Of a stretch of 32,000 nucleotides of DNA, positions 25,017-30,740 are shown piece after piece. The notes under the pieces are model-generated. The model was given only the letters and a program-made list of their open reading frames with translations, did not search any database and was not told the DNA's origin. Position 1 is the first letter of the stretch, and every line of letters starts with the position of its first letter. The position numbers were made by a program, and so were the translations under genes. This stretch comes from Candidatus Saccharimonadota bacterium (lineage in GTDB: Bacteria > Patescibacteriota > Gracilibacteria > BD1-5 > UBA6164), in NCBI GenBank assembly GCA_963677765.1, contig OY782392.1, positions 900,001-932,000 of the forward strand, read 5' to 3'.

Positions 25017-25301
25017 ATGATTACTATAAAAAATGCTTCTTGAGAAGTTATAAAAACTATTGAAGCTGATTTAACAAAAACTTTATTAAAACAATTGGAA
25101 GCAGAATGAGTATCAATGGCTGCCGCTTGTTATACTGGTATATGTTGAGCATGTATGTGTCAAATAGAGGATGGTGAAGAAAATATAAATAAATCATTTA
25201 GATGAGAACCATGATTCCCTTTGGGTAATGATGAGGTTATGACATGTATAGCATGAGTAAAAGACAAAGATAAAGATATTGTTTTAAAAACTATATATTA
25301 A
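25017..25301 (+). CDS. Plant-type [2Fe-2S] ferredoxin
   Basis: 94 aa starting 1 nt after the metG stop. ACYTGICGACMC (Cx4Cx2C) plus a distal MTCIA Cys form the classic 2Fe-2S ligand pattern. Confidence 0.8.
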
Positions 25302-25333
25302 AAAAAAGAGACTTTTTTAAAAGGTCTCTTTTA
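25302..25333. terminator. Bidirectional terminator (ferredoxin / small membrane protein convergent pair)
   Basis: aaaagagacttt / tta / aaaggtctctttt. It overlaps the minus-strand stop at 25331-25333. Confidence 0.75.
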
Positions 25334-25654
25334 TCTTCTTCTAGGTCTACCAGAATAATCCATTGTTTTTGGGTCATCTAGATATTCCTCAACATATTTT
25401 TTTTCATCATCACTTAGATTTTCATAATTATCTATCATTTCTTGAACACTATAATATTTATGAGCTTTGTTTTTTTCATTTCTTCTTATCATAAATATTA
25501 ATATTGCTATTAAAACAACATCAACAATTCCAGAAACATATAGAGAAATTTGTGTATCATTGATAATGAAACCATTAACTATAATAAATGTTATTCCATA
25601 TATAATAAGTAAAATAATTATTAATAGAAATAATCCTTCCATAGCTTTTGCCAT
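25331..25654 (-). CDS. Small membrane protein (2 predicted TM helices, charged tail), function unknown
   Basis: 107-aa ORF from the track with no TGA. GLFLLIIILLIIYGITFIIV and VSGIVDVVLIAILIFMI are followed by an acidic/basic tail. AAGGA lies about 8 nt upstream of the ATG, one of the few SD-like sites in the window. Confidence 0.6.
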   Translation of the reverse strand: MAKAMEGLFLLIIILLIIYGITFIIVNGFIINDTQISLYVSGIVDVVLIAILIFMIRRNEKNKAHKYYSVQEMIDNYENLSDDEKKYVEEYLDDPKTMDYSGRPRRR

Positions 25655-25720: not shown

Positions 25721-25745
25721 AAAAGTATGACTAAGTCATACTTTT
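25721..25745. promoter_or_regulatory. Perfect 11-bp inverted repeat (candidate operator or orphan terminator)
   Basis: aaaagtatgac / taa / gtcatactttt sits in the divergent intergenic region, about 77 nt upstream of the RHH-domain gene. A T-rich stretch follows on the + strand. Confidence 0.4.
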
Positions 25746-25821
25746 TTATTTTTTACTTTGATTTTGTTTTATTAATTATTATATTTAGCTTTGTTACAAA
25801 TATTTATTTAAATATTTATTT

Positions 25822-26643
25822 ATGATAAATAAAGAAAAAATAGCTATTTCTATAGATAGTGTGCTTTTGGAAAAAATAGATGAAAAAGTTGATAAAATCA
25901 ATTTTAAAAGTAGATCAAATGTTATAGAAAGTCTTATAAGAGAGTGATTAAAACTAAAAGAAGATATTTGATGACTTATAATTGCAAATGATAATAATTG
26001 GAATGATAGTGAGTATCCTTTGGATATACCAAAATGTCTTATTGAAATAGATTGAGTTACTATACTGGAGAAAAATATAAGTATATTAAGAAAATCAAAT
26101 ATAAATAATATATATATCGCTATATGACATAAAAAACAAATGATAATAGATTTCTTAAAAAGAAAGTGACTATATGATAAAGTTAATCTTTTAGAATTTA
26201 ATTCTTCAGATATGACTTGAAAAGTTGTTTATGATTCAAAGTTATTTCAAAAATATAATAAATTAGTTGTATTTTTATGAGATAATTATCATCATGATTT
26301 TAATTTATTAGATTTTATCTATTACCATAATACTAGTAATACTCATTTATCTGTAGTTGTTCAACCTATTGATGCATCAAAGTGATATTGAAATATAAAA
26401 CTAGAGTGAAATAATATAGTTAGGTTTGTAGAAAAACCAGCTACAAAAGAAGATATTTCTTTTATAGTTAATACTGGTATCTATTTGATAGATTCAAAAG
26501 TAATTCCAGAAAATAAATGAAACTCAAAACTTGAAACTGATTTTTTTCCTGATTATGTTCAATCAAATAAATCAAAAGCTTATTTTCATAATTGAAAATG
26601 GTTTCATATGCAAGATAACAAAACATTAAATTTATTTAAATAA
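25822..26643 (+). CDS. Ribbon-helix-helix (CopG/NikR-like) domain fused to a nucleotidyltransferase-like domain with a degenerate active-site loop
   Basis: 273 aa, every codon checked. The N-terminus KEKIAISIDSVLLEKIDEKVDKINFKSRSNVIESLIREGLK follows an RHH pattern. The remainder aligns by eye to sugar-1-phosphate nucleotidylyltransferases (DIPKCLIEIDG, FLGDN, GYGNI, RFVEKP, NTGIY, ETDFFP). LIIANDNNWND replaces the usual LAGGxGTRL loop. Confidence 0.7.
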
Positions 26644-26655
26644 TATAAAAATATT

Positions 26656-27072
26656 ATGACAAATATAAATATAGCTAGCAATGAAAATTTTATAACAGAA
26701 GATGATGTATATTTACATACATATAATACAAGATTGCAAAATCTTTTTGTGTATATATCAGAATTAACATCTATCGATATTAGTCATAAGGTAATAATGG
26801 ATAACTTTAGCTTTTGAGATTATACTATAGATGCTTTCAATTGAGAACATATGGATTATTTTCTTGATACTAATTCAAGCTGATACGAAGTTTTTTCTGA
26901 GTTTAAGCCAGAGGATTTAATAAATGAATCAAATATTGAGATATTAAATCATATAATGACTTGAGAATTAAGAGTAGCTTTTATTGATAATTATGAAAAA
27001 ATATTACTTTTGAATAAAACGATAAAAACAAAAACTAGTGAAAATGTTGCAGAAATTTTATATCTAAATTAA
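26656..27072 (+). CDS. Hypothetical acidic protein (138 aa)
   Basis: Open frame with 4 in-frame TGA, every codon checked. It lies 12 nt after the preceding stop and ends 8 nt before galU. I recognise no motif. Confidence 0.55.
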
Positions 27073-27080
27073 TTATAACT

Positions 27081-27953
27081 ATGTCTAAAGTAAAAAAATG
27101 TGTTATTCCAGCTGCTGGTATGTGAACTAGATTTTTACCAGCAAGTAAAGCTCTTCCAAAAGAAATGTTTCCTATAATAGATAAACCTGTTATGCAATTA
27201 TTGGTTGAAGAAGCAATTAGTGCATGATGTAATGATATTATTATTGTTACAGGTAGAAACAAAAGAGCTATTGAAGATCATTTTGATTCAAATTTTGAGC
27301 TTGAAAAAAAATTAGAATCATCTAATAAATTTGAAAGCCTTGAAAAAGTAAAAATGCTTAATTCTATGGCAAATATTTCATATATAAGACAACCATATCC
27401 AAGATGAGATTGAGAAGCTATATTGAGAGCTAAAAATTTTTTATGAAATGAACCATTTTTAGTTTTATTTTGAGATGATATTATTGATTGAGAGAAAACT
27501 GCTGCTCAACAATTAGTTGAAGCATATAATAGAAAAAACTGTCCTGTAATTGCTACTATTCCTGTTAGTGATGAAGAAGTTTCTAGTTATTGAGTTATAG
27601 AAACAAGTCTTAGAGATGGTAAAAGCTTTGTTGTAGATAGATTTTTGGAAAAGCCTAATGCGAATGAAACAAAATCTAGAAATTGAGTAGTAGGGAAATA
27701 TGTATTAAATAGTGATATTTTTCCATACTTAGAAGATGCAGCATCAAAAAAAGTTAGTTGAGAAATAAGACTTGCTGATGCTTTTGAAATGATGAGAAAA
27801 GACAAAGATATATATTGATTAAATATAGAATGAGATAGATTTGATACTTGAAGTAAAATCTGATTTTTAAAAGCAACTATAGCTTTTTGATTGAAAAATA
27901 ATGAATTAAAAGATGAATTAAGAAATTATATAAAAAGTTTAAATATAAAATAA
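27081..27953 (+). CDS. galU: UTP--glucose-1-phosphate uridylyltransferase
   Basis: 290 aa, every codon checked. Motifs: [22 protein letters not shown] (Gly = TGA 27123-27125), [24 protein letters not shown], and GDRFDTGSKIGFLKA. Confidence 0.92.
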
Positions 27954-27954
27954 T

Positions 27955-29238
27955 ATGATTAAATTAGATTTAAAAAATTTGCTTTTTCCTATTGGTTTTT
28001 TAAACCTAAAATATTGATATAAAGCAAGACAATCTATTAGATGAATAAAGCAAAAACATGAACTAGGTCAATTATGATTTATAGATTTAGATATAAATAA
28101 TGATATAGAAAAAATAAATGATTTTGTATCAAAAACAAAAAATAAATACGATGATGTTGTTGTTTTGTGAATATGATGAAGTGCTTTATGAACTCGTAGT
28201 ATATTTACTGCTTTGAAATGAAAATATTACAATTTATTATCAAAAGAAAAAAGAAACAATTTTCCAAAACTACATATATTAGATAATGTTGATCCTATAG
28301 AAATAGATCAGTTAATAAATATTTTGGATTATAAAAAAACACTTTTTATAGTTATATCAAAATCATGATGAACATTGGAAACAATATCTCAGTTTCAATT
28401 TTTTAAAAATCAGTTAGAAAATATTTGAATCGATTATAGAAATCATTTTGTAGTTGTTGCATGAGAAGATTCTATCTTTAAAAAAGAATGTCTAAAAAAA
28501 TGATTAGAAGTTTTTGATATACCAAATAATGTTGGTTGAAGATTTTCTGTTTTTACAAATGTTTGATTATTACCATTAGCTTTTGTTTGAATAGATATAA
28601 AATGATTACTCTCATGAGTAACAAAAAGTAAAAAATCATACTTAGATGAAGATATGATGAATAATCAAGCTCTTTTAACTTCACTAATACAATACCATTC
28701 ATATATAGAATTGTGAAAAAATATTACAGTCTTTTTTCCATATATATCAAACTTTAATTATTTATGACAATGGTATAAACAAATGATTTGAGAAAGTCTT
28801 TGAAAGTGATGAATTTGAGTTACTCTTTCTGACTCTATATGAGTAACTGATCAACATAGTCAATTACAATTATACTATGATTGACCAAATGATAAGCTTA
28901 TAATGTTTTTGGAGTTAGAAGATTTCCAAGTTGATTATGATATATGTTGTAATGAGAAATTTAGTTTTTCAAATTTGATGCATACAGAAAAATATTGAAC
29001 AGAAACATCTATAACTGAATACAATAAAATTAATTATACTTTGAAACTAGATAAATTAAATGAAGAAACTCTTTGAGAACTTATATTATTCTTTGAGTTT
29101 CAAACAGCTATATTATGAGAACTTTATGGATTTGATGCTTTTGATCAACCAGGAGTTGAAATATGAAAAAAGATAACAAAACAAAGGCTTATAGAAAATA
29201 TTTGAAAAATTGAGCTTTTAGAATGAAAAATTAACTAA
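27955..29238 (+). CDS. pgi: Glucose-6-phosphate isomerase (short bacterial/archaeal type)
   Basis: 427 aa, every codon checked; by hand count 33 in-frame TGA against 5 GGN. Motifs: VVVLGIGGSALGTRS, ISKSGGTLET, VGGRFSVFT, and DQHSQLQLYYDGPND. It starts 1 nt after the galU stop. Confidence 0.9.
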
Positions 29239-29244
29239 AATAAA

Positions 29245-30393
29245 ATGAAAGAACAAATTAAAATAACTACTATATGATGATGAAATTGACAATCAAATTT
29301 ACTTGATTGACTTAATAGTTACTTTTGAGATGAAGTAAAAATCTCATCTATAGTATCTATGAGTGATGACTGAAGAACTACTTGAGTTTTGATGAAGGCT
29401 TTCAATGATAAACTAAATATACATCTACCTCCTCCATGAGATGTTAGAAGATGTTTATTCTCTTTATCAAAAAGTAAATACAAAGAACAATTTCAAATTT
29501 ATTTTGAACAAGAAATAACTTTGGATTGAGATATAAAAGATTTTAGTATAAAAGATATTTTATTATCACTTGATTCATCAAATGATTTTATAGAATATAT
29601 TTCTAGAGAAAAAAAAGACTTTTTAGATTTTTTTATACCTTTGGGTATAAAAATTAAATGACATAAATTTTGAAATATATTAATGGCATCACTTTTTTAT
29701 AACTATAATCAGGATTATGATAAAATGTTGGATTTTTTACATAATATGATGGAAGTTTGATGAAAAATAATACCAGTAACTATAAAAAGAGCATATATAA
29801 AAGCTATTTTATGAAACTGAGATGTTATTGAAAAACAAGATAATATATCTAATGTTGCTAATTATAATTCATGAATATCAGATCTTCGTTTGATGGATTG
29901 TTCTATTGATGCAGATCATACAAAACAAGTACATGATGCTATTGTTGAATCTAATTACTTGATAATTTGACCTTGAGATTTATATACTTCTATTATTTCA
30001 AATTTTATAATTTGATGAGTTAAGGATTCAGTTAATGATTCTGTTTCAAAGATTATATATATTTGAAACTCAACAAATAAATGATGAGAAACAACATGAC
30101 TTACACAACTTGATTTTTTAAACAAAATAGAGCTGTTTTTATGAAAAAAAGTTGATTATTTTGTTTTAAATAATTCAAAACCTAGTCTTAGTGATGATGA
30201 AAAAGAAGTTTTTAAAAATGATATATCTGTAAAATGATGAGATTATTTATTTTTATCAGATATAGAAAGAGAAGAATTATCTAGAAGATGAGTTAATGTA
30301 TTAGAAACTGATTTATTGTGAGATAATAAGACTTATAAATATGATAAGAAAAAAATAGTAGAATCATTATCTAAAATAATTTTTAATAAATAA
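29245..30393 (+). CDS. yvcK: YvcK/CofD-like (UPF0052) gluconeogenesis / cell-envelope factor
   Basis: 382 aa, every codon checked. Motifs: TTIGGGNG (TGA x3 at 29275-29283 plus 29287-29289), SMSDDGRTTGVL, GHKFGNILMA, and IIGPGDLYTSIISN. Confidence 0.88.
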
Positions 30394-30395
30394 AT

Positions 30396-30740
30396 ATGTA
30401 TATATTTTTGCACAATTCTAGATGTAGTAAATCTAGAGAAGCTCTAAAAATAATGGAAAAATCAAAAAAGAAATATACTCTTAGAGAATATTTAAAAAAT
30501 CCATTAGATCTTGATGAATTAATTTCTTTGCAAGAAAAACTTTGATTGAGAGCTATTGAGTTTACAAGAATACAAGAAACAGAATTTAAACAATCAAATT
30601 TAACAAAAGAATCTAGTGATATAGAAATACTAAAAGCTATGAGTAAATATCCAAAACTAATGGAAAGAGCTATTGTTTATAACGATAATTCTGCTATAGT
30701 ATGTAGACCTGTTGAAAAACTTAATGATTATTTAAAATAA
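30396..30740 (+). CDS. ArsC/YfgD-family (glutaredoxin-fold) reductase-like protein
   Basis: 114 aa: MYIFLHNSRCSKSREALKIM...LMERAIVY..AIVCRP. The HN(P/S)RCSKSR motif is typical of the ArsC family. It starts 2 nt after the yvcK stop, and the track ORF 30546..30740 is in frame. Confidence 0.8.

What the first reader, a model, noticed from the sequence alone, without database searches (positions are those of the whole stretch)
25822..26643. RHH DNA-binding domain fused to a nucleotidyltransferase-like domain that has lost its NTP-binding loop
Residues ~4-45 follow a ribbon-helix-helix (CopG/NikR-like) pattern. The rest matches sugar-1-phosphate nucleotidylyltransferases along its length (DIPKCL, FLGDN, GYGNI, VEKP, NTGIY, ETDFFP). 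The signature G-G-x-G-T-R-L loop, however, is replaced by A-N-D-N-N-W-N-D. This looks like an enzyme fold repurposed as a ligand sensor for a transcription factor. It is the first gene of the operon containing an authentic GalU, so a sugar-phosphate or UDP-sugar-responsive autoregulator is a reasonable hypothesis.
Basis: partly seen in the sequence, partly recalled or inferred. Interest (0 to 1): 0.6.

Follow-up and report, generated by a model that had tools for sequence, protein, structure and literature searches.

The report
NikR-like regulator with dead sugar-nucleotidyltransferase sensor
This gene of a Gracilibacteria genome encodes a likely transcription factor: a NikR-type DNA-binding head fused to a sugar-nucleotide enzyme fold without its catalytic loop, and it belongs to a large unstudied family in ultrasmall bacteria and archaea that sits beside sugar-phosphate metabolism genes and conserved GTATGA operator boxes.

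Summary
Under code 25 (TGA=Gly; a tRNA-Gly(UCA) is in the genome), 25822-26643 is one 273-aa ORF. It has an N-terminal ribbon-helix-helix (RHH) domain and a sugar-1-phosphate nucleotidylyltransferase (NT) fold. ANDNNWND replaces the G-G-x-G-T-R-L loop.

The fusion is real. At least 100 sequence clusters share the full-length architecture. About 45 of 401 sampled Patescibacteria genomes carry it, and named copies come from DPANN archaea.

The family's RHH profile matches E. coli NikR best. The upstream palindrome is GTATGA-N5-TCATAC, which uses NikR's own half-site. It occurs once in the 1.05-Mb genome. It is identical in three orthologous loci, and a fourth differs by one spacer base. Arrays of the same box, direct or inverted at a 10-11 bp period, lie upstream of distant family members.

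Neighbouring genes are enriched in PGI, PGM, FBPase, GAPDH and PFK. In Gracilibacteria the order regulator-galU-pgi holds in all 14 loci.

In this clade the hexose-pocket residues are invariant. The PPi loop, the base-binding motif and the second metal Asp are lost.

Best reading: an operon-specific regulator that senses a sugar phosphate or nucleotide sugar. DNA binding, the ligand and the sign of regulation are inferred, not shown. I found no paper describing it.

The parts
25721..25745 (.). Candidate operator: a perfect palindrome (12-nt arms, 1-nt centre) holding the half-sites GTATGA (25725-25730) and TCATAC (25736-25741), 11 bp centre to centre.
   Evidence: One search shows the palindrome. 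It is the only exact GTATGA-N5-TCATAC in the 1.05-Mb genome. It is identical in three orthologous loci and differs by one spacer base in a fourth, including one genome with a different upstream gene. The same box occurs in arrays upstream of distant homologues. It also scores as a hairpin followed by a T-run.
25758..25785 (+). Promoter-like site TTGATT-16-TATATT, 13 nt downstream of the palindrome. This is a weak prediction.
   Evidence: The number of promoter-like hits in this 23% GC DNA equals the chance expectation, so this is a lead only.
25822..26643 (+). Gene for the 273-aa RHH / NT-like fusion protein (P0001), read under code 25.
   Evidence: and 29 (AF2 pLDDT 91.9, pTM 0.85).
25831..25956 (+). 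NikR-type ribbon-helix-helix DNA-binding domain, residues 4-45. It comprises the strand segment K-I-A-I-S-I, helix 13-22, the N/S-R-S turn and helix 31-45.
25984..26007 (+). A55-N-D-N-N-W-N-D62. N56-D62 stand in place of the G-G-x-G-T-R-L pyrophosphate-binding loop, so the catalytic Arg is Asn61 and the Thr is Trp60. The stretch is conserved in the clade as [AS]-[NH]-[DE]-x-x-W-[ND].
26029..26640 (+). Rossmann-like NT (GT-A) fold, residues 70-273. It keeps K71, D154, Y189-G190, E204-K205, N217, E238 and W260. It has lost the LGTAG base motif, the Lys of the E-K pair (T239) and the second metal Asp (H262).
   Evidence: Pfam; Foldseek hits HddC 6jq8 at E 3e-17, plus GMPPB, VTC1 and RmlA; profile against GMPPB at E 1e-50; residue table; VTC1 residue roles.
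26656..27072 (+). 138-aa ORF of unknown function, second gene of the row.
   Evidence: No Pfam or NCBIfam hit. It is present only in the closest relatives, at 91, 64 and 32% identity.
27081..27953 (+). galU, UTP--glucose-1-phosphate uridylyltransferase, with an intact G-x-G-T-R loop.
   Evidence: TIGR01099 E 3e-92; sequence.
27955..29238 (+). pgi, glucose-6-phosphate isomerase.
29245..30393 (+). CofD-related protein of the YvcK type (UDP-sugar-binding family).
30396..30740 (+). ArsC-family protein, last gene of the row.
   Evidence: It is conserved after the yvcK-like gene in L065, L067 and L070.

Best explanation
The gene encodes a one-component transcription factor.

Shown or well supported: its N-terminal NikR-type RHH domain belongs to a family whose genes carry GTATGA boxes upstream. 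In this window the two boxes are inverted and 11 bp apart.

Inferred: the RHH domain dimerises, and two dimers sit on the two boxes upstream of its own operon (regulator, orf138, galU, pgi, yvcK-like, arsC-family).

Shown by sequence: the C-terminal domain derives from a hexose-1-phosphate nucleotidylyltransferase of the GDP-mannose pyrophosphorylase / HddC type. It has lost the pyrophosphate loop, the catalytic Arg, the base-binding motif and one metal-binding Asp, and it keeps the hexose pocket.

Inferred: the domain no longer catalyses. Instead it binds a hexose phosphate or NDP-hexose and holds the dimers together. Ligand occupancy then changes operator binding, so expression of the UDP-glucose / hexose-phosphate genes follows sugar supply. 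Repression relieved by ligand is my preferred direction. It rests on analogy with NikR and other RHH proteins, and on distant family members whose boxes overlap or follow the -10 element.

The protein belongs to a large unstudied family in CPR bacteria and DPANN archaea. Family members are typically local regulators of central sugar-phosphate genes. The enzyme-like domain ranges from apparently intact to heavily eroded.
For: - The architecture is real and conserved. There are 31 close sequences of about 273 aa. More than 100 clusters at 50% identity align from residue 2-5 to about 265. About 45 of 401 sampled Patescibacteria genomes carry a full-length copy with no internal stops.
- The RHH domain is NikR-like. 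The published E. coli NikR operator is GTATGA-N16-TCATAC (PMC7055735).
- The window's site GTATGA-N5-TCATAC is unique in the genome. It is identical in three orthologous loci, and a fourth differs by one spacer base. One of the identical loci has a different upstream gene.
- 24 of 50 upstream regions of family genes hold an exact box. Dinucleotide shuffles predict 3.1, and 5% of control windows have one.
- Paired boxes occur in 27 of 60 target regions against 7 of 103 upstream regions of other genes in the same loci. Several of those 7 lie before neighbouring genes.
- In four other genomes of about 1 Mb, every exact direct pair lies at the regulator's locus.
- Orthologous Gracilibacteria loci carry direct-repeat arrays, which cannot form a hairpin.
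- Neighbours are enriched in PGI, PGM/PMM, GlpX FBPase, GAPDH, PFK, PGK, enolase, aldolase, transketolase and sugar kinases. The order regulator-galU-pgi holds in all 14 Gracilibacteria loci.
- The fold is confidently NT.
- All 33 clade members keep P-K, D154, G190, E204, N217, E238 and H262. By the VTC1 structure paper, these map to the hexose and phosphate contacts. The lost residues map to the PPi and guanine contacts.
- The true GalU in the same operon keeps the canonical loop.
Against: - No DNA binding, ligand binding or enzyme assay exists for any member.
- RHH_1 for this protein alone is 0.3 bits under Pfam's cut-off.
- The monomer models show the two helices but not the N-terminal strand, as expected for a domain that folds only as a dimer.
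- The palindrome also scores as an intrinsic terminator. In one orthologue it directly follows a co-directional gene.
- TATGAT resembles a -10 hexamer, so part of the upstream enrichment of GTATGA could come from promoters.
- About half of the distant family loci show no exact box.
- In the window the site lies about 50 nt upstream of the only plausible -10, which fits an activator as well as a repressor.
- K71, D154 and K205 remain, so residual or altered catalysis is not excluded.
- The ligand is unknown.
Confidence: 0.65

Rival explanations
1. The NT-like domain has no ligand. It only supplies the dimer-of-dimers scaffold, and the protein is a constitutive autorepressor that sets a fixed level of operon expression.
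For: NT enzymes are obligate dimers or tetramers (established knowledge of RmlA and GMPPB). The catalytic loop is gone. Many family members have large deletions around the loop.
Against: In the window's clade the hexose-contact residues are invariant in all 33 sequences (Y189-G190, E204, N217, E238, W260). A new conserved motif, [AS]-[NH]-[DE]-x-x-W-[ND] with Y65-P66, lines the former nucleotide side. A pure scaffold would not need these residues.
Confidence: 0.15
2. The protein is still an enzyme as well as a DNA binder, a trigger enzyme like PutA or NadR, using an altered set of catalytic residues or a different substrate.
For: K71, D154, E204 and K205 are retained. A few family members keep a fully canonical G-G-x-G-T-R loop plus the W-x-D-x-G motif (6 of 124), so they may be real bifunctional enzymes and possibly the ancestral state.
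Against: This clade has lost Gly9, Thr12 and Arg13, which bind PPi in VTC1. It has also lost the LGTAG base-binding motif, the Lys of the E-K pair and the second Asp. A canonical GalU is encoded two genes downstream.
Confidence: 0.1
3. The palindrome at 25721-25745 is an intrinsic terminator or insulator hairpin and not a protein-binding site. The regulator's real targets, if any, lie elsewhere.
For: The hairpin has 11 pairs and a T-run. Its folding energy is -10.7 kcal/mol, z -3.9. It has the same shape as the bidirectional terminator at 25304-25332. In L003 it directly follows a co-directional gene.
Against: In the window no co-directional gene ends upstream of it; the neighbour is divergent. 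The arm sequence stays identical or differs only in the spacer while the flanks and the upstream gene change. Orthologues carry the same box as direct repeats, which cannot pair. The box matches the half-site of the closest solved RHH relative, NikR. The exact site is unique in the genome.
Confidence: 0.07
4. The fusion is an annotation or translation artefact: two genes joined by reading through a stop codon or a frameshift.
For: The ORF exists only if 13 TGA codons are read as sense.
Against: The genome encodes tRNA-Gly(UCA), and at six of the TGA positions Gly is the commonest residue in distant homologues. Every other gene in the window also needs TGA read as sense. Homologues in standard-code genomes have the same architecture with no stops.
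Confidence: 0.01

Closest known systems
NikR (nickel-responsive repressor; PDB 1q5v, 2hza, 2hzv)
   Same: It has the same type of N-terminal RHH domain and is the best solved-structure match of the family's N-terminal profile (E 4e-7). The strand motif R-x-T-I-T-L and the N-R-S turn are shared by most family members. The DNA half-site GTATGA/TCATAC is the same. The logic is the same: an RHH head plus a C-terminal ligand-binding, oligomerising domain.
   Different: NikR's C-terminal domain is an ACT-like nickel-binding tetramerisation domain. Here it is a nucleotidyltransferase fold. NikR's half-sites are 16 bp apart; here they are 4-5 bp apart (10-11 bp period), with N15 in a few lineages. The window protein has K-I-A-I-S-I where NikR has R-V-T-I-T-L.
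GMPPA (non-catalytic paralogue of GDP-mannose pyrophosphorylase) and GalF
   Same: These are NT-fold proteins of the same subfamily as the closest solved relatives (GMPPB, VTC1, HddC). They have lost catalysis and act as sensors or regulators. GMPPA binds GDP-mannose and inhibits GMPPB (PMC11228364).
   Different: GMPPA regulates by protein-protein contact with the active enzyme and has no DNA-binding domain. The window protein carries an RHH domain and lacks the C-terminal left-handed beta-helix.
PutA and NadR (enzymes fused to DNA-binding domains)
   Same: PutA joins an RHH domain to metabolic enzyme domains. NadR joins an HTH domain to an NMN adenylyltransferase. The few canonical-loop members of this family may work in the same way. 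This comparison rests on established knowledge and was not tested here.
   Different: Those proteins are active enzymes with unrelated folds (PutA) or a different nucleotidyltransferase superfamily (NadR). The window protein appears catalytically dead.
CggR / SorC-type and NrtR-type regulators
   Same: In these transcription factors the effector domain is a repurposed enzyme fold that binds a sugar phosphate (CggR: FBP) or a nucleotide derivative (NrtR: ADP-ribose). CggR controls central glycolytic genes, as this family's neighbourhoods suggest for it. This comparison rests on established knowledge.
   Different: The DNA-binding domains (HTH or winged HTH) and the sensor folds are different. 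There is no sequence relationship.

Membership tests
Ribbon-helix-helix superfamily (Pfam RHH_1 / CopG-NikR type) | Profile match over about 40 N-terminal residues, including the turn motif before helix 2. | tested here: met
   For P0001 alone RHH_1 scores 20.2 bits against a cut-off of 20.5, which is borderline. NikR NCBIfam models score E 5e-5. 67 of 124 family members hit RHH_1, best E 2.6e-9. The family profile hits E. coli NikR at E 4e-7 and CopG at 0.04.
Ribbon-helix-helix superfamily (Pfam RHH_1 / CopG-NikR type) | Strand-helix-helix topology. | tested here: inconclusive
   The AF2 monomer models give helices 13-22/25 and 31-42/45 but leave residues 4-11 without strand pairing. This is expected because the sheet forms only in a dimer. 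All top Foldseek hits are RHH proteins (NikR probability 0.99, TM 0.75), but E-values are weak for a 50-residue query.
Ribbon-helix-helix superfamily (Pfam RHH_1 / CopG-NikR type) | Binds repeated DNA boxes as dimers or higher oligomers. | not testable with these tools
   Only comparative support is available: conserved arrays of GTATGA boxes at a 10-11 bp period upstream of family genes.
NikR | C-terminal ACT-like nickel-binding tetramerisation domain. | tested here: not met
   NikR models match residues 4-45 only. The C-terminal 200 residues are an NT fold.
Sugar-1-phosphate nucleotidylyltransferases (PF00483) | GT-A / Rossmann-like NT fold. | tested here: met
   Pfam E 7e-17; Foldseek HddC at E 3e-17, plus GMPPB, VTC1 and RmlA; family profile against GMPPB at E 1e-50.
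Sugar-1-phosphate nucleotidylyltransferases (PF00483) | N-terminal G-G-x-G-T-R-L signature (PPi/NTP binding; catalytic Arg). | tested here: not met
   Profile positions 1-20 are unmatched. The stretch N56-D-N-N-W-N-D62 occupies the loop's place. Gly9, Thr12 and Arg13 bind PPi in VTC1.
Sugar-1-phosphate nucleotidylyltransferases (PF00483) | Catalytic Lys of the P-K motif, Asp of the G-D motif, the E-K pair, and Asp of the W-x-D-x-G motif. | tested here: not met
   K71, D154 and E238 are kept. The Lys of the E-K pair is T239, and the second Asp is H262, invariant in all 33 clade members.
Sugar-1-phosphate nucleotidylyltransferases (PF00483) | Pyrophosphorylase activity. | not testable with these tools
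   This needs an enzyme assay.
GalU (TIGR01099) | Equivalog-level profile match. | tested here: not met
   GalU models do not appear among P0001's hits. The gene two positions downstream scores E 3e-92 against the same model.
RHH antitoxins of type II toxin-antitoxin pairs | A small RHH protein next to a toxin gene. | tested here: not met
   There is only a weak HicB-like hit, E 0.047. No toxin family is among the neighbours. The protein is 273 aa and carries an enzyme-like domain.

The most novel reading that the evidence does not exclude
CPR bacteria and DPANN archaea share a previously unrecognised family of local regulators of central sugar-phosphate metabolism. In this reading the family began as a bifunctional enzyme-repressor: a NikR-type RHH domain fused to an active hexose-1-phosphate nucleotidylyltransferase. 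Its members now span every stage from catalytically competent to pure sensor. The operator code (GTATGA boxes at one-turn spacing) has been kept across the radiation. This would give these uncultured lineages one of their few predictable regulatory circuits.
Probability: 0.45. Interest if true: 0.8.

Novelty: new variant of a known kind. Interest (0 to 1): 0.68.

Why it matters
Very little is known about gene regulation in Patescibacteria and DPANN archaea. They have few recognisable transcription factors, and most cannot be grown alone.

This family is annotated in public records only as "NTP transferase domain-containing protein", "NDP-sugar pyrophosphorylase family protein" or "hypothetical protein". 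Metabolic reconstructions therefore count it as an enzyme. If the reading here is right, those calls over-predict nucleotide-sugar synthesis and miss a regulator.

The work also gives a concrete, testable circuit: a defined operator box, a defined target operon and a short list of candidate ligands. It further offers a natural series for studying how an enzyme active site turns into a sensor pocket.

Tried and rejected
Genomic context came instead from the genome search, the fetch from genomes and the search for related loci.
- Literature searches found nothing describing the architecture. I tried RHH plus nucleotidyltransferase plus sugar, Patescibacteria plus RHH, and CPR plus regulator plus glycolysis. 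A search for the NikR base-contact residues gave only irrelevant papers. The statement that NikR's strand residues read the half-site therefore rests on my own knowledge.
- Rfam found nothing in the intergenic region.
- The promoter scan is uninformative in 23% GC DNA: 21 sites found against 20.8 expected. The sign of regulation could not be set.
- My first control for box enrichment used coding windows, which is too easy a control. The stricter control used upstream regions of other genes in the same loci. It is itself contaminated by likely real sites before neighbouring genes. I therefore added whole-genome scans.
- I looked for covariation between strand residues and box variants (GTATGA against GTATTA) in Gracilibacteria and saw none that was clear.
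- The artefact and frameshift reading was rejected.

Full report
**The observation**

Under the standard bacterial code the region holds only fragments. Under code 25 it is one ORF, 25822-26643, of 273 residues with 13 TGA codons read as Gly. The recoding is not an assumption:
- Every gene in the window needs it.
- The genome encodes a tRNA-Gly with anticodon UCA.
- At six of the TGA positions, Gly is the commonest residue in the more distant homologues, most of which use the standard code.

Record titles of close relatives name Candidatus Gracilibacteria.

Pfam finds NTP_transferase at E 7e-17 for residues 70-260. The match starts only at profile position 21, so the G-loop positions are unmatched. 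RHH_1 covers residues 9-44 at 20.2 bits, just under the 20.5 cut-off. NCBIfam's NikR models match residues 4-45 at E 5e-5. The stretch before the conserved P-K reads I-I-A-N-D-N-N-W-N-D-S-E-Y-P-L-D-I-P-K.

The genes that follow are a 138-aa orphan, galU, pgi, a yvcK-like gene and an ArsC-family gene, with gaps of 12, 8, 1, 6 and 2 nt. The GalU keeps a canonical loop.

**The fusion is real and widespread**
- A word-indexed search returned 30 sequences of about 273 aa, 47-95% identical, all with the motif [AS]-[NH]-[DE]-x-x-W-[ND].
- An exhaustive phmmer search returned more than 100 further clusters at 50% identity, 240-290 aa long, that align from residue 2-5 to about 265.
- A profile of 124 such proteins (A2) found a full-length copy in about 45 of 401 sampled genomes of the phylum. 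These use the standard code and have no internal stops.
- Source names are only "NTP transferase domain-containing protein", "NDP-sugar pyrophosphorylase family protein" or "hypothetical protein". They come from Parcubacteria, a Diapherotrites archaeon and a Woesearchaeota archaeon.
- Of the 124 members, 123 hit NTP_transferase and 67 hit RHH_1.

**The N-terminal domain**

A profile of the first 50 residues from 51 loci (A5) hits E. coli NikR best among all solved structures (E 4e-7). It aligns R-x-T-I-T-L...N-R-S-x-A-I with NikR's R-V-T-I-T-L...N-R-S-E-A-I. P. horikoshii NikR (4e-4) and CopG (0.04) follow.

AF2 models show the two helices at 13-22/25 and 31-42/45. The strand is unpaired, as expected for a monomer model of a domain that folds as a dimer. 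Foldseek's top hits for the N-terminal model are all RHH proteins, NikR first. Their E-values are weak because the query has only 50 residues.

**The C-terminal domain**

The full model has pLDDT 91.9 and pTM 0.85. Foldseek gives HddC (E 3e-17), GMPPB, VTC1, RmlA and AGPase. The family profile hits GMPPB at E 1e-50, aligned from profile position 49 onward.

I used the residue roles described for VTC1 with GDP-mannose and PPi (PMC9168903) and the alignments. The window protein compares as follows.

| VTC1 residue(s) and role | Window protein |
|---|---|
| Gly9, Thr12, Arg13 (PPi contacts) | lost: D57, W60, N61 |
| L-G-T-A-G (guanine-binding loop) | lost: D-M-T-G-K |
| Lys of the Glu195-Lys196 pair | lost: T239 |
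| Asp219 | lost: H262 |
| Lys23 | kept: K71 |
| Asp111 | kept: D154 |
| Tyr145-Gly146 | kept: Y189-G190 |
| Glu162 | kept: E204 |
| Asn173 | kept: N217 |
| Glu195 | kept: E238 |
| Trp217 | kept: W260 |

All 33 members of the W-N/D clade keep P-K, D154, G190, E204, N217, E238 and H262. The hexose side of the pocket is therefore under strong constraint, while the nucleotide/PPi side has been rebuilt.

Across the 124 family members the loop is distributed as follows:
- 6 have a canonical G-G-x-G-[TS]-R loop.
- 11 have G-G-x-G-x-[KR].
- 33 have the W-N/D form.
- 74 are otherwise degenerate or deleted.

In the sampled genomes the commonest form is G-G-x-G-[VIL]-K-M-R-P-F-T.

**The operator**

The palindrome at 25721-25745 has perfect 12-nt arms around one base. 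It contains GTATGA-N5-TCATAC. The published E. coli NikR operator is GTATGA-N16-TCATAC (PMC7055735).

- Uniqueness: the exact site occurs once in the 1,048,296-bp genome.
- Conservation: it is identical in three orthologous loci, and a fourth differs by one spacer base. One of the identical loci has a different upstream gene and diverged flanks.
- Gracilibacteria at 47-57% protein identity: the boxes persist but the arrangement varies. Some are inverted with spacers CGAGT or TAAGT. Others are two to four direct repeats at a 10-11 nt period, sometimes with a GTATTA variant. Direct repeats cannot form a hairpin.
- Distant family members at about 25% identity: 24 of 50 upstream 150-nt regions hold an exact box. 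Dinucleotide shuffles predict 3.1 (maximum 10 in 300), and 5.2% of 1400 control windows have one. Two unrelated lineages (L017, L048) use the same N5 inverted geometry as the window.
- Paired boxes: these occur in 27 of 60 target regions against 7 of 103 upstream regions of other genes in the same loci. Several of those 7 lie directly before neighbouring genes, for example the PfkB kinase gene in L013 and the first gene of the L051 operon. They are probably real sites.
- Other genomes: in four other genomes of about 1 Mb, every exact direct pair lies at the regulator's locus. One-mismatch hits elsewhere were about as frequent as hits to a reversed control pattern.

These regulators therefore look local, not global.

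**Caveats on the operator**

The window's palindrome also scores as an intrinsic terminator (-10.7 kcal/mol, z -3.9). In one orthologue it follows a co-directional gene. TATGAT resembles a -10 hexamer. In some lineages the box overlaps a plausible -10 (L017, L020, L045) or lies between the -10 and the start codon (L018, L021, L042; sequences). That placement fits repression, but it also means promoters may contribute to the enrichment.

In the window the site lies about 13 nt upstream of the only plausible -35. The promoter scan is no better than chance in this AT-rich DNA. The sign of regulation is therefore open.

**Context**

In all 14 Gracilibacteria loci the regulator is followed by galU and pgi, and by the yvcK-like and ArsC-family genes where the contig continues. 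The 138-aa ORF appears only in the three closest relatives.

In other lineages the immediate neighbours include:
- bifunctional PGI (6)
- PGM/PMM (4)
- GlpX FBPase (4)
- GAPDH (3)
- PFK (2)
- GHMP kinases
- PGK, enolase, class II aldolase, transketolase, ROK and PfkB kinases, and an IMPase-family protein

About a third of neighbours are central sugar-phosphate enzymes. I judge that far above what genomes of about 1000 genes would give by chance. This was not formally tested, and related genomes are not independent.

**Synthesis**

Well supported:
- The architecture, the NikR-type RHH domain and the NT fold.
- The loss of the catalytic loop and the conservation of the hexose pocket.
- The conserved box arrays and the conserved linkage to sugar-phosphate genes.

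Inferred:
- The protein binds the boxes as a dimer of dimers.
- It no longer catalyses.
- A hexose phosphate or NDP-hexose is the effector.
- Binding represses the operon.

The closest functional analogies are:
- NikR: the same head and half-site, with a different sensor domain.
- GMPPA: the same fold turned into a non-catalytic product sensor (PMC11228364).
- PutA and NadR: enzymes fused to DNA-binding domains.

I found no paper that describes the family. My coordinates and family assignments agree with it.

Noticed in passing
window 26656-27072 (+): A 138-aa ORF lies between the regulator and galU and has no family hit. It is present only in the three closest relatives, at 91, 64 and 32% identity. 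It is absent from the other Gracilibacteria operons, where galU follows the regulator directly. It looks like a fast-evolving recent insertion.
   Followed up: partly
window 25304-25332: A 14+1+14 inverted repeat with T-runs on both sides lies between the convergent ferredoxin gene (25017-25301, +) and the 107-aa membrane-protein gene (25331-25654, -). It is probably a bidirectional terminator, and it has the same AAAAG...CTTTT shape as the operator palindrome.
   Followed up: no
G000:C1:711876-711954 (outside the window): This is a tRNA-Gly with anticodon UCA, the decoder of TGA as glycine. A normal tRNA-Gly(UCC) and a tRNA-Trp(CCA) are also present.
   Followed up: yes
L055-L059 (G120, G325, G404, G365, G352): A shorter subfamily of about 208-223 aa has the same RHH head and a truncated NT-like domain. 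It always lies directly upstream of a SecD/SecDF-type gene (Pfam SecDF_P1_head, SecD_1st, SecD_SecF_C). In L055 and L058 a TCATAC box lies next to a TTGAC element.
   Followed up: partly
L076/L080 (G246:C1:80770-80795): A second array of three tandem boxes (GTATGA-N4-GTATGA-N4-GTATGA) lies 1.7 kb upstream of the regulator gene, beyond an aminotransferase gene. This is in addition to the inverted pair directly upstream of the regulator.
   Followed up: no
L010, L011, L013 (sites near 2457-2544 in regulator-forward orientation): In these lineages the regulator's own upstream region has no exact box. A paired box instead sits just before the next gene downstream, which in L013 is a PfkB sugar kinase. 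The main target there may be the neighbour and not the regulator itself.
   Followed up: partly
P0064, P0072: Family members carry names from a Diapherotrites archaeon and a Woesearchaeota archaeon. The architecture is therefore shared by CPR bacteria and DPANN archaea. Whether this reflects transfer between them was not examined.
   Followed up: no
L004 (G018), sites at 728-746 and about 1409-1430: The 27%-identical homologue in another genus of the same family has two similar direct-repeat sites. One is upstream of its own gene, next to a TGGTATAAT extended -10. The other is before a 221-aa gene about 700 nt away.
   Followed up: no
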